Notes: generated from the sequence alone by a model not told the origin. Numbered from the stretch's first letter, positions 18,605 to 38,873 are shown. The stretch: DNA of 52,802 nt from an uncultured Candidatus Saccharibacteria bacterium (GCA_964424985.1 CAYRKQ010000004.1:1-52802), one strand, 5' to 3'. Made by a program: numbers and translations.

Positions 18605-18797
18605 GGTGGATAAACACTGGTTGTACACAGGCTTTTAAAAGAGTGGCGGCCATCCACGACTTACCCGCAGGTTTACGACGCGCTTTTACCACCTTTACAC
18701 ACATGTCTTTAGCGCTTCTGTGCCAGGTAGAACGTCGCCTCTTTTCCACGCTATCCACAGTGCCTACTATTACTACTATGTATATAAATAATGAAAC
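18605..18797. promoter_or_regulatory. DnaA boxes plus AT-rich tract between dnaA and dnaN (candidate oriC part 2 / DUE)
   Basis: GGTGGATAA 18605-18613, TTTTCCACG 18742-18750, CTATCCACA 18751-18759, then AT-rich CTACTATTACTACTATGTATATAAATAATGAAAC (18765-18797). Confidence 0.6.
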
Positions 18798-18818
18798 CAA
18801 CTTGGGGGGCAGAAGGAG

Positions 18819-19922
18819 ATGAATATGAAAATTCAAATAACACAGCAGAACTTACAGCGGGCTTTAGCGGTGATGTCCCGGGTGGCAAGCACAAAAACCG
18901 AGTTGCCCATTTTAGCCAACGTCCTCATTGATGCCACCAAAGAGATGGTGTCACTTTCAGCCACTAACCTTGAAGTGGCGGTTATTCATAGAGCCAGCGC
19001 CAAGGTAACAAACCCCGGCAAGGTGGCGGTCCCCGCCCGGCTGTTTTACGAGTTTGTCTCGCAGCTGCCCAAAGATGAAACGGTATCACTGACGCTCGAA
19101 AAAAATAAACTCCTCATTGCGGCGGGCAACTATAGCTCTCACATTCAAGGCACCAACACCGAAGACTTTCCTGCTCTCCCCCAGGTTAGTAATGCGCAGC
19201 ATACCACTATTTCAAACCACACCCTGCAAGATGCAGTAACCAAGACAATTCTGGCCGCCTCGCATGATGAAACCAGGCCGATACTGGGCGGTGTCTATAT
19301 TCATTCGCACAGTAAAAAACTCTACTTTACGGCCACTGACGGCTATCGCTTAGCGGAAGCAGCAACCTCACCACTTTCATTTGATGTCGATTGTGTTGTG
19401 CCCTCACAGGCGCTACAAGAGGTGCTCAAAATGGTACAAGACACAAGCGAAGAAACCAGTGAGCTCTTTTTTGGCGACGGGCAGTTTGCCGTAAAAACTG
19501 AAGACACTCACCTTATTAGCCGACTGGTGGAAGGAGCCTACCCGGAATATCGCCGCCTGATTCCTGAAAAAAGCAGTATTTCTTTTGAAATCAACCGACA
19601 GGAGTTCCAAACAGCAGCCAAGCTGGCTGGTTTATTTGCCCGGGAAAGTGGTGGCAGCATTACTATTACCGCTAGTGAGGATGACAAAAAAGTTATGATC
19701 GCCTCTGTAGCCTCGCAAGTTGGTGATAACAGCTCCTCGGTTGACGCGGTGGTTTCTGGCAGTGGCGCCGTGGTAGTCAACGTTCGCTACCTCAGCGACG
19801 CCCTTAATTGCTTTGAAAGCGAAAAAATAACCTTCCGCTTCGGCGACTCAATCGCCCCCTGCGTCCTGAGCTCAAAACAACAACCAGACTACCAGCACAT
19901 AGTAATGCCCCTCAAAAGCTAG
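18819..19922 (+). CDS. dnaN: DNA polymerase III beta sliding clamp
   Basis: 367 aa. N-terminus MKIQITQQNLQRAL. AAGGAG Shine-Dalgarno upstream. Directly downstream of dnaA. Confidence 0.95.
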   Translation: MNMKIQITQQNLQRALAVMSRVASTKTELPILANVLIDATKEMVSLSATNLEVAVIHRASAKVTNPGKVAVPARLFYEFVSQLPKDETVSLTLEKNKLLIAAGNYSSHIQGTNTEDFPALPQVSNAQHTTISNHTLQDAVTKTILAASHDETRPILGGVYIHSHSKKLYFTATDGYRLAEAATSPLSFDVDCVVPSQALQEVLKMVQDTSEETSELFFGDGQFAVKTEDTHLISRLVEGAYPEYRRLIPEKSSISFEINRQEFQTAAKLAGLFARESGGSITITASEDDKKVMIASVASQVGDNSSSVDAVVSGSGAVVVNVRYLSDALNCFESEKITFRFGDSIAPCVLSSKQQPDYQHIVMPLKS

Positions 19923-23185: not shown

Positions 23186-23196
23186 TATAAATCCTA

Positions 23197-26154: not shown

Positions 26155-26161
26155 GAGCTTG

Positions 26162-28063
26162 TTACTGTCCTAGTTGCGAAGGCGCCTCAGCTTGCGGAGG
26201 TTGTCCGCTTGCGTTGCCGCCGGCCATGACTTCGTAGGCCTGCTGGGCATTTAAGGCAATTTCTTGCATCTTTTTTATTTCTTCAGGGTTAGTGGTGATA
26301 AGGCTGGCTTCAGTGGGGCTTGGCACCACTTGAACATGAACATGATTTTGGCCTGCAAACAATAATCCTTGCCCTACCGGAAACTGGCTAAGACGCTTGC
26401 GTTCCTCGCTGGTGAGTTTAAACACTGCTGAAAGCACGTCGACGGCTGACGTCGACTGCTTTAGAAGAATCTGCATGGAAGAGTTGGAAACAATGGCCCG
26501 GCCAGTTTGGGAGCTCATCATATCTTCGACATCTTGGCTGATGGTGGTTAAGCCCAAGTTGTACTTACGGGCTCGTTTGGCTAAAGAGAACATAAAGTTG
26601 GCTGAATCTTGATATTTCAGCAGCTGCCAGGCTTCGTCAATAATCAGCATGCGGCGCTTCCTGTCTGACTTGGTTTTATTCCAGATGTGATTTAAGACAA
26701 TATACATAGCAACTGGTCGCAGCTCGTCTTCAAGATCACGAACGTTAAAGACCACCATTGAACCATTCACGTCAACATTTGACTGCTGGCTAAAGATGCC
26801 GGCAAATGTTCCCGTAGTGTATTTTCTCAGGCGCTGCGCCATGCTGGGTCCGGTTCCTTGCATGTGCAGGAGCGTTTCGTATAAATCCCCTATCACAGGC
26901 GGCGACGTTTGGTGTGTCAGAGGGTCTGAGGTGATGCCAGCTTTGGCGTAGGTGTCAATCAAGGCTTGGTCAAGATCGGCCTCTTCTACGGGGTTGAGTG
27001 CACCGCCCATCATAAGCCGTAGGAGCCCGTGAAGGGTAATAATATTGGCTCTCAAAGCGTCATTGGCCTCGTCTTTATCGACCACTTGAGGGAGATCAAA
27101 TGGGTTGATGCGGGTCGTTGAGCTCAGTGCCATGCGAACATACGAGCCGCCAACCGCTTCACATAACTTTTGGTACTCATTTTCTGGGTCAATAATAATA
27201 ACTTCGGTGCCCATCATCATGGAGCGTACGGCCTCGAGCTTCACCATGAACGATTTACCAGCACCAGACTTTGCAAAGACCACCATGTTGGCGTTTTCTA
27301 AACTAAAACGGTCGAAAATGACCAGGCCATTATTGTGCATGTTGATGCCATACAAAATACCTTTTTCATCCGTCAAATCGGCGCTGGTGAAGGGAAAGCT
27401 GGTAGAAATAGCACCGGTGTTCATGTTGCGGCGTACTTGCAGTTGGTCGGTAAACTGGGCAATGGTAGAGTTTAGCCCTTGTTCCATCTGGACAGTTGCC
27501 GGCTTTGAATACACCAGCTGTTGCCCCAAAATAGTTTCCACCTTATGCTGCACCACCTCGAGTTCTTCAATTGAGTTAGCGTAGAGCGTAAAGTACAGGC
27601 TAAAGCGGAAGAAGCGTTCTTCACCGACCTGAAGTTTGTCGCGAAGTTCTTCGGCGTCCATAATGGCTGCCTGTTTGCCTGGGTCACGAACGCGGCCTTT
27701 TTCGGCATCAATTTGCAAACCAGCCTCCAGTTGGCTCACTTTTTTACGCAAATTTTCCAACACCACCCGGCTCGCCACTGGGTAGATAAACATAGAAATA
27801 TCAATTTCTTCATCGATATTAATGACTGGTGAGAGCCAACCAGTGAAAATTTGCCGCGGGTAGCCGTAAACGTAAAACGAACGGGCGTATTTGGTTCCCA
27901 GACGAAAATGGCCAGATTCCAGCTCCAGCGAACTTGGTGCAATAAAGTCGCGCAGCTCCGAGATGCCCTTTTTAAAGGCGGCCTCAACCTCTTGCTGCTC
28001 GCGCATACGCTGCTGCGTAGCCAGATCCACCGTGTTACCCACCGGTTTTTGACCTCCCGCCAT
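26162..28063 (-). CDS. virB4: VirB4/TraE-like type IV secretion ATPase
   Basis: Walker A FAKSGAGKSF, Walker B RMLIIDEAWQLL. N-terminal YARSFYVYGYPRQIFTGWLSPV block typical of Gram-positive VirB4-like proteins. Confidence 0.85.
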   Translation of the reverse strand: MAGGQKPVGNTVDLATQQRMREQQEVEAAFKKGISELRDFIAPSSLELESGHFRLGTKYARSFYVYGYPRQIFTGWLSPVINIDEEIDISMFIYPVASRVVLENLRKKVSQLEAGLQIDAEKGRVRDPGKQAAIMDAEELRDKLQVGEERFFRFSLYFTLYANSIEELEVVQHKVETILGQQLVYSKPATVQMEQGLNSTIAQFTDQLQVRRNMNTGAISTSFPFTSADLTDEKGILYGINMHNNGLVIFDRFSLENANMVVFAKSGAGKSFMVKLEAVRSMMMGTEVIIIDPENEYQKLCEAVGGSYVRMALSSTTRINPFDLPQVVDKDEANDALRANIITLHGLLRLMMGGALNPVEEADLDQALIDTYAKAGITSDPLTHQTSPPVIGDLYETLLHMQGTGPSMAQRLRKYTTGTFAGIFSQQSNVDVNGSMVVFNVRDLEDELRPVAMYIVLNHIWNKTKSDRKRRMLIIDEAWQLLKYQDSANFMFSLAKRARKYNLGLTTISQDVEDMMSSQTGRAIVSNSSMQILLKQSTSAVDVLSAVFKLTSEERKRLSQFPVGQGLLFAGQNHVHVQVVPSPTEASLITTNPEEIKKMQEIALNAQQAYEVMAGGNASGQPPQAEAPSQLGQ

Positions 28064-28899
28064 TACGAGTTCTCCCCCTGTTGCGGCTGGGTTTGAGCCC
28101 GACCAACGCCCTTGGTAATAACTGGCACACCAACAGCCTGGCTATCGGCTAGCGTCTGACGAGGCGCGGTATCAGGATTATACGAATTATAGTAAAGTTC
28201 AATCAGCTCCTGGGTATCGAGCGGCGCGCCTTGTACGCCCATTTGCTGCAAGCCATCAAGAACTGCCCCAACACGGTTTTTTAGCTCGACTTTAGCTTTT
28301 TGTAAATCAGCTTCGTTAATGTGTACCACGGGACCCTTTTTGTCAAAAATGCCATCAAGCAGTTTTTTGCTGCTAGCCAAGGCTTGCTTGCCGCTTACTT
28401 CTGGGTAGTACGGAATCACCAGATAAAATTGTTTACTCATAATATTTGTTTGGCTTACCAAATCGCTAATGAAGTAGATGTAGTCTTCCATCAGCATACC
28501 AAGCAGCATATTGTCGAGATTGTTATGAATATTTTCAAGTCTCTCCAAGTACGGGCGCATATCAATTTTGCGCGATTTTATGACGATTTGCATGTCAAAG
28601 TACAAGGAATTAATAAAGCCTTGGTAGGCATACTCCACCGCCTCGCGTTCTTGCTCACTCATGAGGTCGAAGTTGATGCTTTTTGCCAGCACCACTGAAC
28701 GAAAACTGCCGTCGGCCATTATGGTAATACCATCACGGATCTCGGCCACTAGCAGGCTGTTTTGGGTACTGTTAGGATTGCTCGGCGCAACATTTACCGT
28801 TGGTGGCTGTTGTGTTGCTGCCGGCCTCATAGGCATGCCCGGTTGAGGCGCTTGAGGTTGAGTCGGCACTCCTTGTAATGGTTGTTGATTTGGCTGCAT
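28063..28899 (-). CDS. Hypothetical protein resembling the extreme N-terminal domain of Gram-positive VirB4-like ATPases, with a P/Q-rich N-terminus
   Basis: EIRDGITIMADGSFRSVVLAKSINFDLMSEQEREAVEYAYQGFINSLYFDMQIVIKSRKIDMRPYL resembles, from memory, the first domain of long VirB4 homologues. TAATG overlap with virB4. Confidence 0.5.
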   Translation of the reverse strand: MQPNQQPLQGVPTQPQAPQPGMPMRPAATQQPPTVNVAPSNPNSTQNSLLVAEIRDGITIMADGSFRSVVLAKSINFDLMSEQEREAVEYAYQGFINSLYFDMQIVIKSRKIDMRPYLERLENIHNNLDNMLLGMLMEDYIYFISDLVSQTNIMSKQFYLVIPYYPEVSGKQALASSKKLLDGIFDKKGPVVHINEADLQKAKVELKNRVGAVLDGLQQMGVQGAPLDTQELIELYYNSYNPDTAPRQTLADSQAVGVPVITKGVGRAQTQPQQGENS

Positions 28900-28948
28900 A
28901 AATACACCTTATTATGTCACACCAGAGGCCAGTATGTACAGGTTATGC

Positions 28949-29806
28949 TTATTTCTTATGATGCAGATTGATGACGACTTCTCCATCATCTGCCATTGTC
29001 GCCTCTGTTTCGGGGCTTGGTACGGCGACTGGAGCTTGATTCTCAGGGGATGGCGGCTCTGTTTGTTGCGGCTGATCGACTAGTGGGTCTTGTGGCGGTG
29101 TCGGTGTGGGGGCGGGAATGTCTACTATCGGCGCGGGCGTCACTTCCTCTGACGATACCTCGCTGCGTGCTTGTTCAACAACGCTCAGTGCATTTTGCCG
29201 CTGTGCTTTCTCCGCCTGCGAGAAATCCTGAGTTATTACTTGTGCGGTACGGTTGCGTGGATCTTCGTGGTCGTACTGATCACGCATGCTATCGCGTTCG
29301 GCTTCAATCGGGGTTATGGGCTGGGTGAAACGAGAAAGTTCCTCAGCATTAAAGAGCCGTTGCCCGGTTTGTACCTGCGTGGCGTACTTACTAGCCCAGC
29401 CACGACTGTCTAACATAGAAGAAAGTTGGTTAAGGCGGCTATCTACCTGTTGTTGAGTAAGGCCTTTTGTGTAGACCTTTTGCACAAACTTAGGAACAGT
29501 AATAATAACCCGCTCTTCCAGCCCTTCTTGATCCCACTTTCTCACACGAGGTTTTAGTTTAAAGCGAAGCCACGAAGCGAGGAATACTTCCACGGGCTGG
29601 TCGCTACGCTGGTATAGCCCCAGCACGCCACTAACGATAGCAATCGGTAGAGGGATAATTATGAGCGCAATGTTTATCTTTGCCAGCATCCAGCACATCC
29701 ACAAAGATGCCACCATCACCAACACAAAAATAAACTGCTTTAGGCTTAAAAAGCCAACTAGCTTATCTTCAGCTTCAACATCTTGTGGTACGCGGTACGT
29801 TGCCAT
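28949..29806 (-). CDS. PrgI/VirB3-like small membrane protein extended by a long P/Q-rich tail
   Basis: N-terminus MATYRVPQDVEAEDKLVGFLSLKQFIFVLV followed by two TM helices, the PrgI-family pattern as remembered. The C-terminal 100 aa is proline/glutamine rich. Confidence 0.5.
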   Translation of the reverse strand: MATYRVPQDVEAEDKLVGFLSLKQFIFVLVMVASLWMCWMLAKINIALIIIPLPIAIVSGVLGLYQRSDQPVEVFLASWLRFKLKPRVRKWDQEGLEERVIITVPKFVQKVYTKGLTQQQVDSRLNQLSSMLDSRGWASKYATQVQTGQRLFNAEELSRFTQPITPIEAERDSMRDQYDHEDPRNRTAQVITQDFSQAEKAQRQNALSVVEQARSEVSSEEVTPAPIVDIPAPTPTPPQDPLVDQPQQTEPPSPENQAPVAVPSPETEATMADDGEVVINLHHKK

Positions 29807-29863
29807 ATAAGCATAAGTATACCATTTGGTGCGCGACAGGTGGTAGATACCGACTTACTTTTC

Positions 29864-31840
29864 TTAATCATCTGCATCGTCCCAGGTTCTAGTGGTTTCG
29901 GTTCTTCCTCCATCTGGTGTTTCTCCTGCCGCAGCCCTCCGGGCCCTTTCGGCGTCAAAATCTGCCGTGGGTCGTGGGCCGGCTGAACCACTGGGAGCTG
30001 CTGGCCCGGGCATTACAAGTTGCTGAGGTATCATATTGCCATCACCGTCAGCTCCCATTCTTGTGCCAAGACCACGAGTGCGCATTTCATTGACTTTTGC
30101 TTCAACAACTCTAGCGGCATCTGGGTTATTTGCCAGTGCGTTTGCAACATGTGCCTTGGTATTCGCATCCGTGTAGCTACCCTCCATTGATAGCATGGCA
30201 ACCATCTCGACTCTAGCGGCTTTTTCACGATCGCGGTTGTCATACTCTTCTTGTGTGACTTCTGGGCCGCGAGTGCCGTCGGCATTTGGTCTGTCGTACA
30301 TCTTGCCAGTACTTACGTCGGAAGTCACTCCTTCGTTATCATCCCGGGCGGCGTTTCTTACAAGTGACTCCACCACTACCTGCTTGTTGTTGTAGGAACT
30401 CTCTGTCCCGGCGATAACGTTACCAGAGTCGTCATATTGTGCGTAGTTTATATCGTAATCCTTAAGCTGCCCAAGATGGCCAGGGCCAAGCTCTCTTGTG
30501 GCTTTGTCCAGAGTTGCATAGGCCTTTGACCTTAAGCCAGGATCCTCGCTAGACAAGGTGTACACTTGACCAGACGTAGCATCATAGCCGGCTGCGAATC
30601 CTGAAAAGTTCCCCTGACCCTTATTAGTTTCTCTAAGTTTGTTGACGGCGTTTTGCTTAAATGCTCGATCCATAGAGCTATTCCCATAGATTGTGTTAAG
30701 CGACTCAAGTGCGGAGTCATCTAGTTTACCGAAGCCAGAAGATATACCCATGGCGGCGACTTGGTATCGGGATCCAGTTTTGCCATACATGCGCTCAAGT
30801 CTTGCGGCTTGTGCGACCTTCTTATCGTCACCACTCTCGCGTAACTGCTTAACTCTTCTACGCAATGTCCCGTTTGATGCTCCATGTCGGGCAAATTCAT
30901 TGGCAGTGTCGTGATCTTTTATGCCCAACTTCATCATCTCTTCCTGAGCCTCATCAATTTCTCTAGAGTGATTACGCATAAAATCAGTTGCTGATTTTCC
31001 ACCTATTCGACCTCCTGTTGCTCCGTGGAGCACTGAGGTAGGCCGATTTGCTATAAACGCAGCTTTATTAAAGAAGTTCGCTCGTTTACTGTTTCCGTCA
31101 AATTTACGACCCTGTCTAGCTGCCTGTCTACTCATTGCTCCGGCTTCATGGGCTGACTTGCGTCTTAGGCTAATAGATTCACGCGTGGCATTCTTCAGAA
31201 GGCCGCCAACTGTTCCCATTGTGGTGCCTGCGAACTTAAAGGTGAACGGGACTAAGAAGAACGGCGCAAATGTTAAAATAAAGCGAGCAAGCGTACCCCA
31301 AACCCCAGGGTCTCCGTCTCCATTAAGTTCAAATAATCCAGACGCAAACTTACCACTAATAAGTAAGAGTACTATGATCGGATACATGAGGAGCACCTTA
31401 ATGTAGGTGTTAAACCATTTTTTTGCGAGAGCTTCGGTTCCTGGCAGAATCCAGAGCGCGATGGCAATTGGCGAAGCCAGAATTAAAAATATAATCATTA
31501 TTTGACGGAATAAGACAGTCATCACTGCTGAAGCAAGTGCCACCGCGCCAACCATGAGCATCGGGACGAATATTTGAAACGAACCATAAGCAAGAGTAGC
31601 GCCTATCACCACGCCAATTAACGTGAAGGTACCGGCTTGTGTTCCAGCGTTAGAACTAGATATTAGTTCATAGTTTAAGTTTAACGCACCACCTATGTTC
31701 GTTAGCATAGCTTGAACTGAATCGCCTAATGCATTTGAAAAATCTAACAAAATTGTACATATAGACCACGATAAGTTTACAAATACTACTGCCAATATTA
31801 ACCTTGGCAGCATTTTTTTAACTGTATAAGCGTCTAGCAC
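29864..31840 (-). CDS. VirB6/TrbL-like polytopic membrane protein with a hydrophilic C-terminal extension of about 430 aa
   Basis: At least six hydrophobic helices in the first 220 aa or so, followed by a long charged region. Position next to the VirB3/VirB4-like genes. Confidence 0.6.
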   Translation of the reverse strand: MLDAYTVKKMLPRLILAVVFVNLSWSICTILLDFSNALGDSVQAMLTNIGGALNLNYELISSSNAGTQAGTFTLIGVVIGATLAYGSFQIFVPMLMVGAVALASAVMTVLFRQIMIIFLILASPIAIALWILPGTEALAKKWFNTYIKVLLMYPIIVLLLISGKFASGLFELNGDGDPGVWGTLARFILTFAPFFLVPFTFKFAGTTMGTVGGLLKNATRESISLRRKSAHEAGAMSRQAARQGRKFDGNSKRANFFNKAAFIANRPTSVLHGATGGRIGGKSATDFMRNHSREIDEAQEEMMKLGIKDHDTANEFARHGASNGTLRRRVKQLRESGDDKKVAQAARLERMYGKTGSRYQVAAMGISSGFGKLDDSALESLNTIYGNSSMDRAFKQNAVNKLRETNKGQGNFSGFAAGYDATSGQVYTLSSEDPGLRSKAYATLDKATRELGPGHLGQLKDYDINYAQYDDSGNVIAGTESSYNNKQVVVESLVRNAARDDNEGVTSDVSTGKMYDRPNADGTRGPEVTQEEYDNRDREKAARVEMVAMLSMEGSYTDANTKAHVANALANNPDAARVVEAKVNEMRTRGLGTRMGADGDGNMIPQQLVMPGPAAPSGSAGPRPTADFDAERARRAAAGETPDGGRTETTRTWDDADD

Positions 31841-33246
31841 TATAGCTTCCCTCCAAGTGTCTGAGAAATGATCAGTATAAGAAATGCAATTACAAACAGT
31901 ATATTGGCAATATTTCTAAATATGGCCCAGGCTTCGTAAAGCGAGTCGCTTACTTCGTAGCGTAAATTATCTTTAAGGTAATCACCAAACATCCTTAGAG
32001 CACCTTCAATTGTGTCAATGATTGGGCAAAGAATCCACGAAAGTGGACTGTTTAGGTTTGCATCACATGAATCTTGATCAACACTTTGGTCATCATTACC
32101 TTGATCACCGAGGCCATCAGTAGTTGGAGCGGTTACTTCAAGGGTACTCTTTATTTTACTAGCCAGCGGGCTTTTGTTAACTATACAATCTTTTATATAG
32201 GCGGTACTCAGCTCATTAACAGTCAGTCTGCCCTGAGCGTACCTAAGTTTATCGTACTCTTTTATAATACCTTCAGCAATCGATGATGCCTGGTCGGCGA
32301 TGGGCATGCCTGAAAATGACGATTCTGCGCTTGCGCCAGCAACACAGAACTTAACTGAGTCATAATTGTCACTTGCAAGTATCTCTCTGGCTTTTTCAAG
32401 CTTGTACTGCAGTATTTCTTCATCAAGTGCTTCTTCAAGGGCACTTTCACCAAAGGTCAATAAATATCGATTACTGGGGTTGTCAATAATGAAACTTCGT
32501 ATGGAATCACAATCTGCAAGCCCGGTGGTGTATGTACCGTAAATACGCATCGCGCCCATGTAGCCCACTACGCGAAGTCGATTATCTTCTGGTATCCAGT
32601 TTTCTTTTTTCGCCCGTGTTTCGTCGGTTCTTTCGATACTTGAGTCCTTCCATTTCCAGCAGGCACCAAAAGCATCGCTAATAACGTGGTCTCTCCATAA
32701 ATTAAAACTATCACTTCTGCCAGCAATGAGACTTGTTGCATAGTTTTTAATATCAGTTTGGAGTTTGCTCCAATTAGTCCTCGGGGTGTAAGGGAATGAA
32801 CCGGTATTGTAGTGGTCTTTAATAAATGCTTGACGCTTTTCCGGCTTGGAAGCTCCCTGGTAAGCAGTCTCATAGTACTCGGACAGAGCCTTCGCACAGC
32901 TTATAGTTGCTAAGTTTGAGTTAGATGAGCCAAATAGTATTGAAGGCACTGAGAATGTGTTGCCGGCAGTGGCCTTTAACGGGCTGACGCTTGGATTTTC
33001 ATAATCATTTTTGGTGAGTGACTTCAGGTCGAGCAAACAGACCGACTGACTGTTATTATCTGTCTTTTTCGCTCCTGTAAGTGCCCGTAGAGTTTCATAG
33101 CGAACCACAACTGTTTGATTACCCGGCATACGCGCACTCCCGCTATTTTGTGCAAAAATGACTAACGGTGACAGGGCGGAGATACCAACAGAAACTAAAA
33201 AGAGAGACAGCAGAAAACCACCCCCAAGTCTGCGTAGTTTTCTCAT
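31840..33246 (-). CDS. Hypothetical secreted protein with C-terminal membrane anchor, 8 Cys
   Basis: Signal peptide FLLSLFLVSVGISALSPLVIFAQ and C-terminal TM ILFVIAFLILIISQTL. No recognisable family. 1-nt overlap with the VirB6-like gene. Confidence 0.6.
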   Translation of the reverse strand: MRKLRRLGGGFLLSLFLVSVGISALSPLVIFAQNSGSARMPGNQTVVVRYETLRALTGAKKTDNNSQSVCLLDLKSLTKNDYENPSVSPLKATAGNTFSVPSILFGSSNSNLATISCAKALSEYYETAYQGASKPEKRQAFIKDHYNTGSFPYTPRTNWSKLQTDIKNYATSLIAGRSDSFNLWRDHVISDAFGACWKWKDSSIERTDETRAKKENWIPEDNRLRVVGYMGAMRIYGTYTTGLADCDSIRSFIIDNPSNRYLLTFGESALEEALDEEILQYKLEKAREILASDNYDSVKFCVAGASAESSFSGMPIADQASSIAEGIIKEYDKLRYAQGRLTVNELSTAYIKDCIVNKSPLASKIKSTLEVTAPTTDGLGDQGNDDQSVDQDSCDANLNSPLSWILCPIIDTIEGALRMFGDYLKDNLRYEVSDSLYEAWAIFRNIANILFVIAFLILIISQTLGGKL

Positions 33247-33863
33247 AATTTTGCAATCTCTCGGTTATAGCTCCGCAGCGAAAGGAGGTCTTTGGTAGCA
33301 CTATCTTTGGGTATGAATGTAGAGGCGATTTTCCCAGCGTTTTTCTCAAGTTGCGATCCGCTAGTATAGTAAAAACTTATCTTCCATACAAAAGCCTCAC
33401 CGAAAATGTAATAGTCCGTGTAGGGAGTTTCACCTGCTATTTTGGTAACAACTGCGTCGTTCTCCCCAATCCTGGTCGTTTCTACGGTGGCACCGGACGA
33501 AGAGATCGCCTCTTTGAACTTTTCGATATCTGGTACGGCACCTACATCTGTATATCTTGAAACCTTATATGAATCAGTTGTGCCTCCTTGGCTACTATCT
33601 TTGGCCGTGAAGGTAACGTTAACGTAGTCTCCTTCTCGCTGGTATGCCTTCGGAAAGTTAATTGAAAACCAGGAATTACTGTAGAGGTTAAAATCCTCTC
33701 TGAGTGTTCCGTCTTGCCCGACTTTATTACCCTGACTTGTTCCTAAAACTGTCACAATAATTACGATGACAATAGCTAGCAAAGTAACGCCTACTAATAG
33801 TAGGCGACGTTTGCCATTAGAAGACCGAGTCTGAGAATCCCCAGTCTTATAAAATGTACTCAT
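33243..33863 (-). CDS. Hypothetical bitopic membrane protein, first gene of the operon (VirB8-like in architecture only)
   Basis: N-terminal TM RLLLVGVTLLAIVIVIIVTVLG plus a globular domain of about 150 aa. 4-nt overlap with the next gene. Confidence 0.55.
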   Translation of the reverse strand: MSTFYKTGDSQTRSSNGKRRLLLVGVTLLAIVIVIIVTVLGTSQGNKVGQDGTLREDFNLYSNSWFSINFPKAYQREGDYVNVTFTAKDSSQGGTTDSYKVSRYTDVGAVPDIEKFKEAISSSGATVETTRIGENDAVVTKIAGETPYTDYYIFGEAFVWKISFYYTSGSQLEKNAGKIASTFIPKDSATKDLLSLRSYNREIAKL

Positions 33864-33953: not shown

Positions 33954-34313
33954 ATGACGCAAAAAATAAAACAACTAGCTCTTCGTGGTTCTCTATTTTT
34001 AGTGGTATTCTCTACAGTACTAAATGAGTCTGTTTTTGCACAAGATTTAGACCCGGCTACTGTCGGCACGCCGCCCACCGGTGGTAGTGTCTACGACTGG
34101 CTTAGTATGATTATTAACGTACTCTCCGTAGTGGCACTGTCGCTTTTTGTGCTTAGCATGATTATTGCTGGCTATCAATACATGACAGCCAGGGACAATG
34201 CCCAGCAAGTTTCAGATGCTAAAAATAGAATAACTACTACTGTAATTAGTATTATTTTGTTTGTCTTTGGGTATGCTTTTTTGCAATGGCTTATACCCGG
34301 CGGCGTTTTTTAG
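33954..34313 (+). CDS. VirB2/TrbC-like pilin paralog 1
   Basis: Signal peptide ending VFAQ, then two hydrophobic helices flanking AGYQYMTARDNAQQVSDAKNRI. No Cys. Start 33954 is preferred over the listed 33870. Confidence 0.6.
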   Translation: MTQKIKQLALRGSLFLVVFSTVLNESVFAQDLDPATVGTPPTGGSVYDWLSMIINVLSVVALSLFVLSMIIAGYQYMTARDNAQQVSDAKNRITTTVISIILFVFGYAFLQWLIPGGVF

Positions 34314-34379
34314 TAATAGCCACGCTACTCTTTGAATTATCATTAAATAATATGATCAAATGAGGTACTATAAATACAT

Positions 34380-34826
34380 ATGTTAAAACGTGCCTTATTT
34401 TCTATAGTGCTTTTTAGCACCATCATCATGGCTGGGCTAGTATTTACAACGCAGCCGACCTACGCTTGTGATCCAGTTCCGGGTGACGGTGGTTTTGCTG
34501 AAGACATATTTCCCCCTTGGTACAAATATCTAGACGGTGTAGAAGATTCTGAAGGTGTATGTCGAGTCGATGTAACAAATGCAAATCCAGCCAGAACGGC
34601 TACCCTTATTCTTATTGCAATCATTGAACTACTTACAAGATTGGCGGCGCTCGTAGCTGTTGGGTTTGTAATATACGGTGCAATACAGTACATAGTTAGC
34701 CAAGGCGATTCACAATCACTTAGCAATGCCAAGAGTACTATTGCAAACGCCCTGATTGGCTTGATTATCACACTGCTATCCGTTGCTTTGATACAATTTA
34801 TAGGGCGAATATTCGCTGTGAAGTAG
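34380..34826 (+). CDS. VirB2/TrbC-like pilin paralog 2
   Basis: Signal peptide ending TYA. Cys-bracketed 32-aa loop (CDPVPG...SEGVC). Core YGAIQYIVSQGDSQSLSNAKSTI between two TM helices. Confidence 0.6.
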   Translation: MLKRALFSIVLFSTIIMAGLVFTTQPTYACDPVPGDGGFAEDIFPPWYKYLDGVEDSEGVCRVDVTNANPARTATLILIAIIELLTRLAALVAVGFVIYGAIQYIVSQGDSQSLSNAKSTIANALIGLIITLLSVALIQFIGRIFAVK

Positions 34827-34835
34827 GGATTATAG

Positions 34836-35126
34836 ATGAATACGATCATACAACTTGGTATTTTGGCACAAACAGTATCGGCCCCCCTGCTCCCTAAACA
34901 GTCTGTCGGGGGCGTAGTCCCCGTGTTGTTGAAAATTGTATTTGGAGTGGCAGCATTACTGGCCATAATTTTTATTGCTTACGGCGGGCTTAAGTACACA
35001 ACTAGTAACGGTGATTCAAATGCTGTGCAAAGCGCCAAAAACACTATTTTATCTGCGGTAGTTGGGCTGGTGATTGCTGTTTCGGCTTTTGCGATTGTTG
35101 ATTTTGTGGTTGGGAAGCTGGGATGA
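34836..35126 (+). CDS. VirB2/TrbC-like pilin paralog 3 (short, no obvious signal peptide or Cys loop)
   Basis: Core YGGLKYTTSNGDSNAVQSAKNTILSAVVGLV. ATGA overlap with paralog 4. Confidence 0.55.
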   Translation: MNTIIQLGILAQTVSAPLLPKQSVGGVVPVLLKIVFGVAALLAIIFIAYGGLKYTTSNGDSNAVQSAKNTILSAVVGLVIAVSAFAIVDFVVGKLG

Positions 35127-35542
35127 ATATAAAAAAATACTGCATGCTTATTGCTACCTTTTTGTTCTTAGTTATCGGCATACAGTCACTTTTGGTCTAC
35201 GGGAGTGTATCGGTAAACGCGCAAGACCCGTTTGTTTATACATGTGATGATGCCGTTGGTGCCGATACAGAATTTTGTAAAAATGTAAACTCAGAGAGCT
35301 CAAGAAGTATTTTATTTGGTGATAAAAGTATGCTTTATATGATTGCCCAAACTATTGTTTGGCTTGTCGGTATACTCTCGGTCATTATGGTTATAATTGG
35401 CGGCTTTCGGTATGTAATTTCGGCCGGTGATAGCAATGCGGTTCAAGGCGCCAAAAATACTATTATGTATGCACTTATTGGTGTTGTAGTCGCTGCATTT
35501 TCTCAAATAATTGTAACTTTTGTTTTGTCGAAATTTATCTAA
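35123..35542 (+). CDS. VirB2/TrbC-like pilin paralog 4
   Basis: Signal peptide ending VNA, loop CDDAVGADTEFC, core IIGGFRYVISAGDSNAVQGAKNTIMYALIGVV. Confidence 0.65.
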   Translation: MNIKKYCMLIATFLFLVIGIQSLLVYGSVSVNAQDPFVYTCDDAVGADTEFCKNVNSESSRSILFGDKSMLYMIAQTIVWLVGILSVIMVIIGGFRYVISAGDSNAVQGAKNTIMYALIGVVVAAFSQIIVTFVLSKFI

Positions 35543-35564
35543 GTGGTATACCATGGAGGAAGCT

Positions 35565-35969
35565 ATGAAGAACATAATTAAAAACATTACCGCAACTCTT
35601 CTACTAGTAGTGGGGTTGGGGGTTGTGCTTACGCCCACAATTTATGCTAGCCCGGCATCTGATTCTTGTGACGTGCTTAAGAGTATTGACGATACCGTAA
35701 CTTGTGACTCGGCCACTTCTAAAGAAGCTGGTAATAACATTGCAATAAAAGTGATAAATATACTATCAGTGGTAACTGGATCCATTGCTGTAATTATGGT
35801 TATAATTGGCGGAGTAAGGTATGTAATTTCGGCCGGTGATAGCAATGCGGTTCAAGGCGCCAAAAATACTATTATGTATGCATTGGTCGGTCTTGTAGTG
35901 GTATTATTTGCACAGGTTATTGTTCGTTTTGTGCTTTCTACTGCTACAAACCCAACACCCACCCCATAG
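35565..35969 (+). CDS. VirB2/TrbC-like pilin paralog 5
   Basis: Start MKNIIKNI preceded by GGAGGA. Signal peptide ending IYA, loop CDVLKSIDDTVTC, core IIGGVRYVISAGDSNAVQGAKNTIMYALVGLV. Confidence 0.65.
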   Translation: MKNIIKNITATLLLVVGLGVVLTPTIYASPASDSCDVLKSIDDTVTCDSATSKEAGNNIAIKVINILSVVTGSIAVIMVIIGGVRYVISAGDSNAVQGAKNTIMYALVGLVVVLFAQVIVRFVLSTATNPTPTP

Positions 35970-36051
35970 TAAAGCCGCTTGTGTAATGTGGCTGTGTCCG
36001 TTATAATTTGCCTTATAGCTAGCTTTTAATCGAAAGGAAACAATAAATATA

Positions 36052-36483
36052 ATGAAAGCTCTACTTAAAAAAATTGTCAATCTAATTAGCGTTGCAGCTC
36101 TTGTTGTAGTACCGCAGACAGCGGTACTTGCCGGAGTGGCGCATGCGCAATCTGAGGTGCCTCAGGTAACAACTGATATACAGAATGCTGCCTGTCAAGG
36201 TGCGAATCTGAGTACTAGTACAGAATGTACCCCTGGCGACTCACAAGGGAATTTCAACACACTTATGACCCGTATCATTAATATCTTCTCGATTGTTGTT
36301 GGTGCCATCTCAGTTATCATGGTGATTATTGGCGGCTTCCGCTACATCATTAGCAACGGTGATAGCAATGGGGTGTCTGGTGCCAAAAACACCATCCTCT
36401 ATGCCCTCGTTGGTTTAGTGGTAGTGCTCTTCGCTCAAATTATTGTCCGCTTTGTTCTTTCAAACGCAACTGCTGACGTATAA
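36052..36483 (+). CDS. VirB2/TrbC-like pilin paralog 6
   Basis: Signal peptide ending AHA, loop CQGANLSTSTEC, core IIGGFRYIISNGDSNGVSGAKNTILYALVGLV. Confidence 0.65.
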   Translation: MKALLKKIVNLISVAALVVVPQTAVLAGVAHAQSEVPQVTTDIQNAACQGANLSTSTECTPGDSQGNFNTLMTRIINIFSIVVGAISVIMVIIGGFRYIISNGDSNGVSGAKNTILYALVGLVVVLFAQIIVRFVLSNATADV

Positions 36484-36501
36484 ATAATCGGCCTAGATTT
36501 T

Positions 36502-36530
36502 AAAAGACCCCGTACTCAGGGGTCTTTTTA
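36502..36530 (+). terminator. Rho-independent terminator after pilin paralog 6
   Basis: AGACCCC-gtactca-GGGGTCT followed by TTTT. Confidence 0.7.
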
Positions 36531-36568
36531 GTTTACTGACTCCTTATAAAGTGATACTATTTTAGTAT

Positions 36569-37066
36569 ATGAAACACACCGTGAGACACCTCCTCAGCTG
36601 TTTGCTTATAACTGCGTTTATTCTGGCTGCTGGTGTCATGGCCGTAACTCCAGTTTATGCGCAGGAAACAACTCCCCCGCCAATTACACAGCAGACGGTG
36701 GCGGATAGCGTGTGTCAGGGTGTGCTTGGTACGCAAGACGTAAATGTGGATACCACCGTCACGGCCGCGGATTGTAAAGAAAATGGCAGCCAGACGTTCA
36801 ATGATGTGATTCGGCGTATCATCAACATCTTCTCCATTGTCGTGGGTGCTGTTTCAGTCATCATGATCATTATCGGCGGCTTCCGCTACATTATTTCAGG
36901 CGGCGATTCAACTGGTGTCAGTGGCGCTAAAAACACCATCCTCTACGCAGTAGTTGGCCTGGTTATTGTCCTGTTTGCACAAGTTATTGTCCGGTTTGTC
37001 GTAGCAAACCTCTCCACCCCCACGACTCCCCCACCGGTTTCAAACACCAGCCAGCCACAAAACTAA
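36569..37066 (+). CDS. VirB2/TrbC-like pilin paralog 7 with Pro/Thr-rich C-tail
   Basis: Signal peptide ending VYA, loop CQGVLGTQDVNVDTTVTAADC, core IIGGFRYIISGGDSTGVSGAKNTILYAVVGLV. Confidence 0.65.
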   Translation: MKHTVRHLLSCLLITAFILAAGVMAVTPVYAQETTPPPITQQTVADSVCQGVLGTQDVNVDTTVTAADCKENGSQTFNDVIRRIINIFSIVVGAVSVIMIIIGGFRYIISGGDSTGVSGAKNTILYAVVGLVIVLFAQVIVRFVVANLSTPTTPPPVSNTSQPQN

Positions 37067-37595: not shown

Positions 37596-38093
37596 TTAGC
37601 TGATTTGAATCTTTTTAACGGTTTCTTGTTTCACTTTTGTAAAGATAACGCTTAGTACGCCGTCTTTTAGTACTGCTTCAACCTCATCTTCTTTTACCGG
37701 CACTGGAAGCGCCAGAGTTCGGCTGAATTCACCCCAGTAACATTCTTGTACGTGGTAATTTTCAGCGTCAACTTCATCACCGCTTGTCAACGTGCCCTTA
37801 ATGGTCAGCGTATTATCAGAGATGCTTACATCAAGATCATCTTTGTTTACACCGGCTGTACGAGCCTTCACAATCAACTTTTCTTTGGTTTCGTACACAT
37901 CTACCGCAAGCATACCGGGCATGTCTTGCATTTGGTCTTCGTCCCAATCGTCGTTTGATGCAGGAACAGTTGCGTCTTGAGGTTCATCAGCGCTTGAATC
38001 GGCAACACCTGTTGGTGTGCTGTCATCTAAAAAGGCCGCCGTCAGTTCATCTTCCATTAACAGATCGTTGTCATTTTTTTGGCGTCGTGCCAT
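37596..38093 (-). CDS. Hsp20/alpha-crystallin family small heat-shock protein
   Basis: Alpha-crystallin domain LAVDVYETKEKLIVKARTAGVNKDDLDVSISDNTLTIKG...ALPVPVKEDEVEAVLKDGVLSVIFTK. Confidence 0.9.
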   Translation of the reverse strand: MARRQKNDNDLLMEDELTAAFLDDSTPTGVADSSADEPQDATVPASNDDWDEDQMQDMPGMLAVDVYETKEKLIVKARTAGVNKDDLDVSISDNTLTIKGTLTSGDEVDAENYHVQECYWGEFSRTLALPVPVKEDEVEAVLKDGVLSVIFTKVKQETVKKIQIS

Positions 38094-38186
38094 GTGAAAC
38101 CTCCACTTTCTCGCAGTTTTTACTAATTTGCATTATAGCGAAAACTTTGCCCTATATGCAATAATTGGCCATGGGTTGTTGTAAAA

Positions 38187-38873
38187 ATGTTTAAGTCACC
38201 TCTAGAATCAGCACTATCACTTTTAACGATTGAAAATTGCCTCATCTGTAACGCCGCCGGTGAACAACTTTGTGAGGGGTGTTTTGCTGCCAGTTTTGAT
38301 ACTTTAGAATCTCGTTGTTACATTTGCAACAAGCTTACTGCTCAAAACCGCGTCTGTAAGAGCTGCAAATCACGTTCACGTCTTCGTCGTGTCTGGTGGC
38401 TTTCAGGGTATAGCGGCGTTTATAAAGATCTTGTCTGGCAAGTAAAATATCAACGAAAACGAGCCACGGCGCGGTTGCTGGGCAGATACCTTGCGGATAC
38501 CCTGCCGTTTTTACCCCCTGAGACGCTCGTAGTGCCGCTTTCTACCGCTACGAGTCGTATACGGCGTCGTGGCTACGATCAGGCTGTCATGATGGCTGCA
38601 GCGTTCGCCAGGGCTCGAGACCTTTCGGTGGTTCCCGCTCTCATCCGAACTGATCAGAAAGAACTCATCGGGATGCGTCGAAACGATAGATTAAAAGCAA
38701 TGGAGGATAGTTTAGCACTAAAGTCCGGGGTTGATTTAAAGAATAAATCAATTCTGCTTATTGATGACGTTCTGACTACCGGCGCCAGTCTGGAGGCAGC
38801 TGCTAAACTGCTGAGAAAAAATGGAGCTGCTCATGTCGACGCGGCAGTGATTTGTCGTAAAGCACCCGTGTGA
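38187..38873 (+). CDS. comF: ComF family protein (phosphoribosyltransferase-like competence protein)
   Basis: Two N-terminal CxxC pairs (CLICN..CEGC and CYICN..CKSC). C-terminal PRTase motif ILLIDDVLTTGASL. Confidence 0.85.
   Translation: MFKSPLESALSLLTIENCLICNAAGEQLCEGCFAASFDTLESRCYICNKLTAQNRVCKSCKSRSRLRRVWWLSGYSGVYKDLVWQVKYQRKRATARLLGRYLADTLPFLPPETLVVPLSTATSRIRRRGYDQAVMMAAAFARARDLSVVPALIRTDQKELIGMRRNDRLKAMEDSLALKSGVDLKNKSILLIDDVLTTGASLEAAAKLLRKNGAAHVDAAVICRKAPV

What the first reader, a model, noticed from the sequence alone, without database searches (positions are those of the whole stretch)
33954..37066. Seven tandem pilin-like paralogs: conserved two-helix core, hypervariable Cys-bracketed loop, and a gene-conversion tract
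All seven ORFs share a core of hydrophobic helix, (I/Y)GG(F)RY(I/V)xSxGDSxxVxGAKNTI, then a second helix.

Five of them (paralogs 2, 4, 5, 6, 7) carry exactly two Cys in the mature N-terminal segment, just after a signal peptide ending in A. These Cys bracket loops of 12-32 residues with unrelated sequences: CDDAVGADTEFC, CDVLKSIDDTVTC, CQGANLSTSTEC, CQGVLGTQDVNVDTTVTAADC, CDPVPG...GVC. Paralogs 1 and 3 lack the loop, and paralog 3 also lacks a signal peptide.

At the DNA level, paralogs 4 and 5 share a 65-bp identical run (35409-35473 equals 35818-35882) plus a 20-bp identical run just upstream. Their 5' halves are unalignable.

This pattern suggests concerted evolution of the membrane core with diversification of an exposed, probably disulfide-locked epitope. 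That could reflect a repertoire for host-range or immune/phage evasion, or a heteropolymeric filament. VirB2-type pilins are unusual in Gram-positive-type T4SSs.
Basis: seen in the sequence. Interest (0 to 1): 0.75.

Follow-up and report, generated by a model that had tools for sequence, protein, structure and literature searches.

The report
Saccharibacteria secretion-system pilin gene array

Summary
Seven tandem + strand genes (33954-37066) share a two-helix core. Five carry exactly one Cys pair in the mature N-terminal segment. Paralogs 4 and 5 share identical runs of 65 and 20 bp, a significant gene-conversion tract (permutation p<5e-5).

All seven match Pfam T4SS_pilin or TrbC/VirB2. They lie divergent from a monoderm-type T4SS operon (VirB4, TrsD, PrgI/VirB3, VirB6, wall hydrolases), next to dnaA/dnaN. 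This is the pilin array of the Saccharimonadia T4SS, published in 2020, 2023 and 2025. In Southlakia ML1 each of the six array genes scores as essential.

The "hypervariable epitope" reading fails. In 80 related genomes, arrays of 6-7 genes keep the same order of types. Each window paralog has a one-to-one orthologue whose loop is recognisably conserved. In the closest relative the p7 loop shows 2 changes in 21 residues with synonymous sites saturated. Between paralogs, core similarity comes mostly from purifying selection, with short conversion tracts confined to the core and mostly between the distal paralogs (23 of 81 loci).

Two details seem unreported: Cys counts are almost always even (417 even, 16 odd), and the types hold fixed positions.

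Best reading: non-redundant subunits of one heteromeric T4SS tube or pilus. Known system, modest interest.

The parts
33954..34313 (+). p1, type-1 pilin (119 aa). It has a signal peptide and a short ectodomain without Cys. In most relatives the type-1 ectodomain is large and holds 4-12 Cys.
   Evidence: Pfam TrbC 29.1 bits (cut-off 27.9) and T4SS_pilin 26.2 bits (cut-off 26.6). Position 1 of related arrays hits p1 best in 61 of 62 arrays.
34380..34826 (+). p2, type-2 pilin (148 aa). C30 and C61 bracket a 30-residue loop that contains the conserved PWYKYL motif.
   Evidence: Pfam T4SS_pilin 28.6 bits. Position 2 hits p2 best in 62 of 62 arrays. A W[YF]x[YFW] motif is found in 44 of 62 position-2 proteins and at no other position.
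34836..35126 (+). p3, type-3 minimal pilin (96 aa), with no canonical signal peptide and no Cys.
   Evidence: Pfam T4SS_pilin 37.8 bits. NCBIfam NF045849, the Mycoplasma ICE Mbov_0395 pilin-like protein, scores 44.7 bits against a cut-off of 40. Short Cys-free proteins occupy position 3 in 50 of 62 arrays.
35123..35542 (+). p4, type-4 pilin (139 aa). It has a C41/C52 loop and an ILFG motif just before the first membrane helix. Its start overlaps the p3 stop by 4 bases.
   Evidence: Pfam 36.3 bits. The L155 orthologue is 20/33 identical in the ectodomain. The hydrophobic-hydrophobic-Gly motif occurs in 21 of 62 position-4 proteins against 6 at all other positions together.
35565..35969 (+). p5, a distal 'CxG-class' pilin (134 aa from the ATG at 35565; alternative starts at 35553 and 35520), with a C-C loop of 11 residues.
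   Evidence: Pfam 39.2 bits. A GGAGGA sequence lies 6 nt before 35565. The L155 orthologue is 15/28 identical in the ectodomain.
36052..36483 (+). p6, a distal CxG-class pilin (143 aa), with a C48/C59 loop.
   Evidence: Pfam 42.7 bits. Orthologues are found in L154, L155 and L156.
36569..37066 (+). p7, a distal CxG-class pilin (165 aa), with a C49/C69 loop of 19 residues and a Pro/Thr-rich C-terminal tail.
   Evidence: Pfam T4SS_pilin 47.4 bits and TrbC 32.5 bits. Of 120 homologues, 119 have the Cys pair, mostly 19 residues apart. The AF2 model shows helices 74-109 and 117-148.
35384..35473 (+). Gene-conversion tract, p4 copy: 20 and 65 identical bases, with 5 mismatches in 90 nt. It encodes the end of helix 1 and the inter-helix loop.
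35793..35882 (+). Gene-conversion tract, p5 copy. p5 is the likely recipient: here it reads like p4 orthologues (RYVISAGDSNxVQG) and not like the L155 p5 orthologue (RYIISGGDSNAISG).
   Evidence: the direction is an inference.
19935..33863 (-). Divergently transcribed monoderm-type T4SS operon. Members: 206-aa and 468-aa membrane proteins; VirB6/TrbL-like (29864-31840); PrgI/VirB3 (28949-29806); TrsD-like (28063-28899); VirB4 ATPase (26162-28063); VanY-domain protein (23197-26154); lysozyme plus M23 hydrolase (21458-23248); and a 511-aa protein of unknown function.
   Evidence: Pfam and NCBIfam. The same gene order is seen in L155 and L156.
17238..19922 (+). dnaA and dnaN, which mark the locus as chromosomal and close to the replication origin.
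   Evidence: Pfam.
37596..38873 (.). Hsp20 (37596-38093, - strand) and a ComF-like phosphoribosyltransferase (38187-38873, + strand). These are conserved downstream neighbours of the array.
   Evidence: Pfam. The same neighbours follow the array in L155 and L156 and in Southlakia SEML1_0020/0021.

Best explanation
This is the VirB2-like pilin operon of the chromosomal, origin-proximal type IV secretion system of a Saccharimonadales (Patescibacteria) bacterium.

Each product is inserted into the membrane. Six of the seven lose a Sec signal peptide after an A-x-A type site. The mature protein is an N-out/C-out two-helix hairpin. Its conserved basic loop (R-Y...S-x-G-D-S...A-K-N-T) faces the cytoplasm, or the lumen once polymerised. 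Its N-terminal extracytoplasmic segment is stapled by a disulfide.

The seven proteins are not interchangeable variants. They represent at least five old, position-fixed subunit types:
- type 1, with a variable ectodomain that is often Cys-rich;
- type 2, with the WYKYL loop;
- type 3, minimal and without a signal peptide;
- type 4, with an LFG motif;
- a distal CxG class of 2-5 members.

The VirB4/VirB3/VirB6 machine most likely extracts these types from the membrane and assembles them together into one envelope-spanning tube or pilus, with the disulfide loops on its outer surface. Only the distal class turns over, by duplication and loss, and exchanges short core segments by gene conversion.

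Shown: family membership, genomic context, orthology and order of the types, the even-Cys rule, and the conversion tract. Inferred: disulfide formation, topology, co-assembly and the roles of individual types.
For: Family and context:
- All seven hit PF18895 and/or PF04956 at or near the curated cut-offs.
- T4SS genes lie alongside, on the other strand.
- dnaA and dnaN are adjacent, as described for Patescibacteria T4SS in PMC12102498.

Conservation of the array:
- Arrays of 6 genes (35 loci) or 7 genes (28 loci) predominate in 80 Saccharimonadales genomes.
- Position 1 maps to p1 in 61 of 62 arrays and position 2 to p2 in 62 of 62. Position 3 is short and Cys-free in 50 of 62.
- In the neighbour-joining tree, p1, p2 and p3 types form clades with one member per genome.
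- L155 carries the same seven genes one-to-one. Its ectodomains are 42-64% identical for p2-p7 and 21% for p1. Orthologous ectodomains score 65-161; paralogous ones score at or below 19.

Cys pattern:
- Counts are 417 even, 16 odd and 76 zero (p about 5e-102).
- Cys makes up 5.1% of ectodomain residues and 0.06% of core residues.

Selection:
- In 120 p7 homologues the Cys pair, the loop length and the loop flanks are conserved.
- Against L154, synonymous sites are saturated while the p7 loop has 2 changes in 21 residues.

Non-redundancy:
- In Southlakia ML1, the six pilin genes SEML1_0014-0019 are each scored growth-defective, then essential, in Tn-seq (Table S1 of PMC10633639).

Structure:
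- The AF2 model of p7 gives a signal helix followed by a long two-helix hairpin.
Against: - No filament or complex made of these proteins has been seen.
- The extracellular filaments solved from one CPR bacterium of this kind, Ca. Mycosynbacter amalyticus, are Ig-fold Pam pilins, not VirB2-like (bioRxiv 10.64898/2026.03.03.709456).
- From my own knowledge, all solved conjugative pili are homopolymers of one pilin plus lipid, so a heteromeric VirB2 assembly has no precedent.
- Tn-seq essentiality of the upstream array genes could reflect polar effects on downstream genes.
- The AF2 model has only moderate confidence (pLDDT 69.7; the loop scores about 50). Foldseek found no significant PDB match, and a profile search of PDB sequences found nothing.
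- Orthology within the distal class (p4-p6) is blurred.
- No disulfide-forming enzyme was looked for.
Confidence: 0.55

Rival explanations
1. Variant repertoire. The paralogs are interchangeable major pilins, each able to form its own homopolymer. They are kept as a repertoire so that the exposed disulfide loop can be varied for host range or to evade phage or immunity. This is the first reader's main idea, and PMC12102498 suggests the same by analogy with Bartonella and Anaplasma.
For: - The loops are unrelated between paralogs.
- The centre of the p7 loop is variable across distant homologues, at about 3 bits of entropy.
- The number of distal-class genes varies between genomes, with arrays of 5-10 genes.
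- Conversion tracts recur and are confined to the core, in 23 of 81 loci.
- The p6 loop shows relaxed constraint against L154, with 4 changes in 12 residues plus an indel.
Against: - Types 1-3 and the p7 lineage are single-copy orthologous groups with fixed positions across the order.
- Every window paralog has a one-to-one orthologue in L155 with a recognisably conserved ectodomain.
- The p7 loop is under purifying selection.
- Loop variability does not exceed that of the signal peptide, linker or tail.
- All six genes score as essential in Southlakia, which a redundant repertoire does not predict.
Confidence: 0.2
2. Membrane-embedded channel parts only. The hairpins never leave the membrane as a filament. 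Instead they form a ring or lining of the translocation channel, or act as assembly chaperones for VirB6-like proteins.
For: - Two-helix hairpins resemble many membrane ring subunits. The structure-based annotation in PMC10633639 lists ATP synthase subunit c among the top fold classes for one Southlakia pilin.
- Foldseek found only generic helical hairpins.
- No VirB2-type filament has been reported so far in this group.
Against: - The HMM matches are specific to VirB2/TrbC-type pilins. From my own knowledge, VirB2 family members studied so far polymerise.
- Conserved, disulfide-stapled extracytoplasmic segments, and the large Cys-rich ectodomains of type 1 in relatives, suggest exposure beyond the membrane.
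Confidence: 0.2
3. Something other than T4SS structural parts: secreted effector or toxin subunits (the ptx/ptl analogy in PMC7427843), or small membrane proteins such as holins or bacteriocin immunity proteins.
For: McLean et al. 2020 first described the array as small Sec-secreted proteins and compared the locus with ptx/ptl.
Against: - Each protein keeps two strongly hydrophobic helices after signal-peptide removal, so it is an integral membrane protein, not a soluble secreted one.
- No holin or immunity family appears among the Pfam or NCBIfam hits. Only pilin families reach the cut-offs.
Confidence: 0.03

Closest known systems
Pilin array of the Saccharimonadia T4SS: Southlakia epibionticum ML1 SEML1_0014-0019; the 'Sec-secreted array' of Nanosynbacter lyticus TM7x; and the 441 VirB2 arrays surveyed by Quinonero-Coronel et al. 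2025
   Same: - Tandem PF18895 genes, divergent from prgI/virB6/virB4.
- Location near dnaA, followed by Hsp20 and comF-like genes.
- Low identity between paralogs.
- A short third gene: 312 bp in ML1, 291 bp here.

   Different: - Seven genes here against six in ML1.
- Type 1 here has a minimal, Cys-free ectodomain.
- In the texts I read, these papers do not report the even-Cys rule, the position-fixed types or the core-restricted conversion tracts.
VirB2/TrbC/TraA conjugative pilins of Gram-negative T4SS (Pfam PF04956)
   Same: A signal peptide, two hydrophobic helices, a short basic connecting loop, and genes placed beside virB3/virB4/virB6. p1 and p7 pass the TrbC cut-off.
   Different: - Here the cell envelope is monoderm and there are seven paralogs instead of one.
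- The N-terminal disulfide loop is an addition.
- No VirB5, no relaxase and no coupling protein were recognised in the operon.
- No significant structural match was obtained.
Tandem VirB2 paralog families of Bartonella (TrwL) and Anaplasma/Ehrlichia
   Same: Several tandem VirB2-like genes that are divergent in exposed parts. PMC12102498 cites them as the analogy.
   Different: Those families are interpreted as lineage-specific amplification for antigenic or host variation. Here most paralog types predate the divergence of the order and keep position and sequence.
Mycoplasma ICE pilin-like conjugal transfer protein (NCBIfam NF045849, Mbov_0395/MMCAP2_0565 family)
   Same: A small two-helix pilin-like protein in a monoderm T4SS, next to a VirB4-type ATPase. 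All seven window proteins hit the model, and p3 passes its cut-off (44.7 against 40).
   Different: The model is only 80 positions long and carries no Cys loop. p1, p2 and p4-p7 score below the cut-off.
Major and minor pilin sets of type IV pili and type II secretion pseudopili
   Same: A functional analogy only: several conserved, non-redundant pilin paralogs with a shared hydrophobic core, different exposed parts and frequent disulfide-bonded loops, which assemble into one fibre with specialised positions.
   Different: The fold and the assembly machinery are unrelated, and no homology exists. The analogy comes from general knowledge and was not tested here.

Membership tests
VirB2/TrbC-type T4SS pilin (Pfam PF18895 T4SS_pilin, PF04956 TrbC) | Match to the family HMM at or above the curated cut-off | tested here: met
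   PF18895: p2-p7 score 28.6-47.4 bits against a cut-off of 26.6; p1 scores 26.2, just below. PF04956: p1 scores 29.1 and p7 32.5 against a cut-off of 27.9.
VirB2/TrbC-type T4SS pilin (Pfam PF18895 T4SS_pilin, PF04956 TrbC) | Signal peptide followed by two hydrophobic helices joined by a short charged loop | tested here: met
   Alignment. AF2 model of p7: helices 2-24, 74-109 and 117-148. p3 lacks a canonical signal peptide.
VirB2/TrbC-type T4SS pilin (Pfam PF18895 T4SS_pilin, PF04956 TrbC) | Encoded with VirB3, VirB4 and VirB6 homologues | tested here: met
   PrgI, a TraG P-loop/AAA_10 ATPase, TrbL-like and TrsD-like proteins are encoded at 26162-31840 on the - strand.
VirB2/TrbC-type T4SS pilin (Pfam PF18895 T4SS_pilin, PF04956 TrbC) | Structural similarity to solved conjugative pilins | tested here: inconclusive
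   Foldseek against the PDB: best E-value 2.9, only generic helical hairpins. Profile search of PDB sequences: no hit.
VirB2/TrbC-type T4SS pilin (Pfam PF18895 T4SS_pilin, PF04956 TrbC) | Polymerises into an extracellular pilus (with phospholipid) | not testable with these tools
   This needs cryo-EM, cryo-ET or biochemistry.
Saccharimonadia origin-proximal T4SS pilin array (PMC7427843, PMC10633639, PMC12102498) | 2-11 tandem PF18895 genes next to the T4SS genes | tested here: met
   Seven genes, starting 91 bp from the divergent T4SS operon.
Saccharimonadia origin-proximal T4SS pilin array (PMC7427843, PMC10633639, PMC12102498) | Chromosomal location near dnaA, with conserved downstream neighbours (Hsp20, ComF-like) | tested here: met
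   dnaA lies at 17238-18566, Hsp20 at 37596-38093 and the ComF-like gene at 38187-38873. The order is the same in Southlakia Table S1 and in L155 and L156.
Saccharimonadia origin-proximal T4SS pilin array (PMC7427843, PMC10633639, PMC12102498) | Origin in a Saccharimonadia genome | tested here: met
   All named homologues and all 80 related loci come from Saccharimonadales/Saccharibacteria MAGs or from unnamed bins. The window's own record is not named.
Saccharimonadia origin-proximal T4SS pilin array (PMC7427843, PMC10633639, PMC12102498) | Required for epibiotic growth | not testable with these tools
   Known only for Southlakia ML1.
Antigenic or host-range variation families of VirB2 paralogs (Bartonella TrwL, Anaplasma VirB2) | Paralogs arise by lineage-specific amplification, so they cluster by genome and not by position | tested here: not met
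   p1, p2, p3 and p7 types form cross-genome clades with fixed positions. Orthology with L155 is one-to-one. Only the distal class shows some turnover.
Antigenic or host-range variation families of VirB2 paralogs (Bartonella TrwL, Anaplasma VirB2) | Elevated non-synonymous change in the exposed segment between close relatives | tested here: not met
   Against L154: the p7 loop has pN 0.04 with pS 0.89; the p6 loop has dN/dS of about 0.45. This rests on a single pair, so power is low.
Mycoplasma ICE pilin-like protein (NCBIfam NF045849) | HMM score above the curated cut-off (40 bits) | tested here: inconclusive
   p3 scores 44.7 (met). p1 scores 33.8 and the others 16.8-25.3 (not met).
   No such family appears among the Pfam or NCBIfam hits up to E = 1 and 0.01 respectively.

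The most novel reading that the evidence does not exclude
The Saccharimonadales T4SS builds an obligately heteromeric VirB2-type tube or pilus from at least five anciently diverged pilin types that keep fixed positions in the array. Each exposed N-terminus is braced by a disulfide, and type 1 carries the lineage-variable, Cys-rich host-contact domain. This would be the first multi-subunit conjugative-type pilus and the first in a monoderm. As far as I could find, the position-fixed types and the even-Cys rule that support this idea are not in the literature.
Probability: 0.35. Interest if true: 0.65.

Novelty: already known. Interest (0 to 1): 0.3.

Why it matters
The T4SS and its pilin array are essential for the epibiotic growth of Saccharibacteria, and reviews call their role completely unknown (PMC11665869, PMC12857230). 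The window adds one more example of this system, not a new system.

The comparative results do narrow the hypotheses. The paralogs behave like specialised, co-required subunits with disulfide-stapled exposed loops, not like an antigenic-variation repertoire. This points experiments towards co-assembly and stoichiometry, Cys-to-Ser mutants, and type 1 as a candidate host-contact subunit. It points them away from switching or redundancy.

Tried and rejected
- Exact-sequence look-up of p7 in the assembly index found nothing.
- The metagenome scan with p5 found no relative closer than about 47-56% full-length identity, so strain-level dN/dS could not be done. Only L154 was close enough, with its p6 and p7 orthologues (p7 85% identical), and even there dS is saturated.
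- Foldseek against the PDB and the profile search of PDB sequences gave nothing usable for a two-helix hairpin.
- The promoter and terminator scan gave promoter-like counts at shuffle level and no terminator-like site at the ends of the array, so operon boundaries remain inferred from spacing.
- I considered that type 2 could be a lipoprotein, because its first Cys directly follows the signal peptide. Only 17 of 55 orthologues have a lipobox-like tripeptide there, and the second Cys is conserved, so a disulfide is more likely. The point is not settled.
- I considered that the 65-bp identity could be an assembly artefact. Repeats of that size can cause mis-joins but do not create identity, and both p4 ends match the L155 p4 orthologue, so I rejected this.
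- I considered general concerted evolution of the core and rejected it because codon identity at shared residues is only 27-50% for all pairs except p4/p5.
- The 2026 'novel pilus in CPR' preprint describes unrelated Ig-fold Pam pilins.

Full report
**1. Observation**

The region 33954-37066 holds seven + strand ORFs in tandem. Spacers are 9-85 bp, and the p3 stop overlaps the p4 start by 4 bases. Their products align over about 70 C-terminal residues: a hydrophobic helix, then (I/Y)GG(F)RY(I/V)xSxGDSxxVxGAKNTI, then a second helix.

p2, p4, p5, p6 and p7 each have two Cys in the mature N-terminal part. These bracket loops of 12-32 residues, counting the Cys. p4 and p7 each carry one more Cys, inside the signal peptide. 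p1 and p3 have none.
- 35409-35473 is identical to 35818-35882 (65 bp), and 35384-35403 is identical to 35793-35812 (20 bp). The 5' halves of p4 and p5 do not align.
- One correction: p5 most likely starts at the ATG at 35565, six bases after GGAGGA.

**2. What the proteins are**

All seven match Pfam PF18895 (T4SS_pilin). Six are above the curated cut-off. p1 is 0.4 bits below it but above the cut-off of PF04956 (TrbC/VirB2), as is p7. No holin, immunity or other family reaches significance.

An AlphaFold2 model of p7, built with 32 homologues, has moderate confidence (pLDDT 69.7). It shows a signal helix, a short helix at the start of the Cys loop, and a long two-helix hairpin at residues 74-109 and 117-148. 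Foldseek and a PDB sequence-profile search gave no significant match. Family membership therefore rests on the HMMs and the genomic context, not on a structural match.

**3. Context**

Ninety-one bases upstream a - strand operon begins. It encodes:
- two membrane proteins of unknown family;
- a TrbL/VirB6-like protein;
- PrgI/VirB3;
- a TrsD-like protein;
- a VirB4-type ATPase;
- two large wall hydrolases (a VanY-domain protein, and a lysozyme plus M23 peptidase).

dnaN and dnaA lie directly beyond this operon, followed by rnpA, yidC and a KhpB-like gene. Downstream of the array come a 23S-rRNA-IVP family gene, Hsp20 and a ComF-like gene. The locus is therefore chromosomal and close to the replication origin.

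**4. Already described**

This is a published system.
- McLean et al. [quoted passage not shown]
- Wang et al. 2023 (PMC10633639) called them predicted pilin subunits. They noted that Gram-positive T4SSs normally lack a pilus. Their Table S1 lists six genes, SEML1_0014-0019. The sizes are 399, 558, 312, 381, 384 and 417 bp, and each is scored growth-defective and then essential. Hsp20, a K02242 (comFC) gene and tRNA-Ser follow.
- Quinonero-Coronel et al. 2025 (PMC12102498) found 441 arrays of 2-11 pilin genes in 383 Patescibacteria assemblies, with a mean identity of 25%. They proposed host-strain adaptation, by analogy with Bartonella and Anaplasma.
- A 2025 review (PMC12857230) highlights the array as a possible first pilus of a monoderm T4SS.

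**5. Are the loops a diversifying repertoire?**

I fetched 80 loci from different Saccharimonadales genomes. I located pilin genes in them with an HMM of the window's core.

Array size and order:
- Arrays of six genes (35 loci) or seven genes (28 loci) predominate.
- Position 1 best matches p1 in 61 of 62 arrays, and position 2 best matches p2 in 62 of 62.
- Position 3 is a short, Cys-free protein without a canonical signal peptide in 50 of 62 arrays.
- Positions 4 onward belong to the two-Cys p4-p7 group.

Type-specific motifs:
- A W(Y/F)x(Y/F/W) motif, PWYKYL in p2, occurs only at position 2 (44 of 62).
- A hydrophobic-hydrophobic-Gly motif before helix 1 occurs almost only at position 4.

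Tree and orthologues:
- In a neighbour-joining tree of eight arrays, p1, p2 and p3 types form clades with one member per genome. There is also a p7 clade. p4-p6 are less cleanly resolved.
- The closest long relative is L155, whose array genes match those called on a 417-kb JGI contig (sample 3300056388). It has the same seven genes one-to-one.
- Its ectodomain identity is 42-64% for p2-p7 and 21% for p1. Core identity is 59-90%, and signal-peptide identity is 10-56%.
- Orthologous ectodomains score 65-161 in global alignment. The window's paralogous ectodomains score -25 to +19.

The p7 lineage:
- Among 120 p7 homologues, 119 have exactly two mature-region Cys, about 100 of them 19 residues apart.
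- The flanks are conserved (SIADNVCxGVL...T...C.E.G). The centre is about as variable as the signal peptide, linker and tail.
- Against the nearest relative (L154, 85% identical), synonymous sites are saturated (pS 0.7-0.9). The p7 loop has 2 changes in 21 residues. The p6 loop has 4 in 12 plus an indel, dN/dS about 0.45.

The loops are therefore paralog-specific and inherited. They are under purifying or at most relaxed selection, not hypervariable in the evolutionary sense. Loops do vary more than the core, but no more than other weakly constrained segments. The power of the close comparison is also low.

**6. Cys pairs**

Across 509 pilins from the 80 loci, the number of Cys between signal peptide and helix 1 is even and non-zero in 417, odd in 16 and zero in 76 (binomial p about 5e-102). 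Cys makes up 5.1% of ectodomain residues and 0.06% of core residues. Type 1 ectodomains in relatives hold 4-12 Cys. This is strong indirect evidence for extracytoplasmic disulfides. I did not find it mentioned in the papers I read.

**7. Gene conversion and 'concerted evolution'**

- At residues identical between p4 and p5, 73% of codons are identical. For every other pair the figure is 27-52%, apart from the distant pair p1-p4 (9 of 15). p5 and p6 share 72% of core residues but only 30% of the codons at them.
- A Sawyer-type permutation test finds 29 consecutive matching polymorphic sites for p4/p5, 17 of them third positions (p<5e-5). The other five pairs among p4-p7 show nothing.
- The tract is absent from the L155 orthologues. 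In the tract, window p5 resembles p4 orthologues, so the conversion was probably p4 to p5 and recent (inference).
- Identical runs of 25-226 nt between paralogs occur in 23 of 81 loci. They lie in the core in 27 of 31 cases and mostly involve the distal genes of the array, usually neighbours.

Core-restricted conversion is therefore real and recurrent within the distal class. Most of the core similarity, however, is maintained by purifying selection.

**8. Mechanism**

- Shown: the family, the context, the order and orthology of the types, the even-Cys rule and the conversion tract.
- Inferred: Sec or YidC insertion; cleavage after the conserved small-x-small site (VxA|Q in p7 homologues); N-out/C-out topology with the basic loop on the cytoplasmic or lumen side, as in VirB2 family pilins (general knowledge); disulfide stapling of the exposed N-terminus.
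- Also inferred: extraction and polymerisation by the VirB4/VirB3/VirB6 machine.

Every type is kept in order across the order, and every array gene scores as essential in Southlakia (polarity is a caveat). I therefore favour co-assembly of specialised subunits into one wall-spanning tube or pilus.

Type 3 is the only paralog above the cut-off of the Mycoplasma ICE pilin-like family NF045849. It may represent the ancestral minimal monoderm subunit. Type 1, with its lineage-variable ectodomain, is the best candidate for host contact. These role assignments are speculative.

**9. Rivals**

- An interchangeable variant repertoire retains some support from turnover and conversion in the distal class, but conflicts with orthology, purifying selection and essentiality.
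- A purely membrane-embedded role cannot be excluded. The only filaments solved so far from a related bacterium are unrelated Pam pilins.
- Soluble effectors, holins or immunity proteins are disfavoured by the two retained membrane helices and by the HMM results.

**10. Verdict**

The system is already known, and the window is another orthologous instance. The modest added value lies in the position-fixed types, the even-Cys rule and the core-restricted conversion tracts. Together these argue for a heteromeric assembly and against antigenic-type variation.

Noticed in passing
window 37118-37474 (+): A gene of the 23S rRNA intervening-sequence protein family (PF05635, 63.7 bits) sits between the last pilin gene and Hsp20. 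A shorter homologue (79 aa) lies on the opposite strand at the same place in L156 and L157. L155 has none there.
   Followed up: partly
window 39032-42535: A possible small accessory island lies between the ComF-like gene and housekeeping genes. It holds a Replic_Relax protein (39032-39898), a CopG-like protein (40514-40822, below the cut-off) and a MazF/PemK toxin (41613-41954), together with tRNA-Ser (41040-41127) and tRNA-Arg (42459-42535). GC is lower here (0.406 at 40-42 kb). In Southlakia, tRNA-Ser follows comFC directly.
   Followed up: no
window 26162-28899 (-): The VirB4 function appears to be split. A 278-aa TrsD-like protein, which matches VirB4 N-terminal parts, ends at 28063, exactly where the 633-aa P-loop ATPase gene starts.
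   Followed up: partly
window 33954-34313, and position 1 of L001-L080: The type-1 pilin ectodomain varies greatly in size and Cys content between genomes. It is about 14-22 Cys-free residues in the window and L155, and up to about 210 residues with 12 Cys in L012. It is the only truly plastic exposed domain of the array.
   Followed up: partly
window 34380-34826, and position 2 of related loci: In type-2 pilins the first Cys directly follows the signal peptide (TYA|C here). It is preceded by a lipobox-like tripeptide in 17 of 55 orthologues, often FAA(A/G/S)C after a very short N-terminal segment. Lipidation instead of a disulfide is not excluded for this type.
   Followed up: partly
window 15272-16330 (-): A Fic/DOC family protein (48.5 bits) is encoded between the yidC/khpB-like genes and rnpA/dnaA at the origin region.
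   Followed up: no
window 34460-34966 (-): A 168-aa antisense ORF runs across p2 and p3. It lies opposite two genes with strong family matches and is most likely spurious.
   Followed up: no
L016, L019, L066 (positions 6-9 of their arrays): Some related genomes have much longer identical runs between neighbouring distal pilin genes (130-226 nt). This suggests very recent duplication or long conversion events in the distal class.
   Followed up: partly
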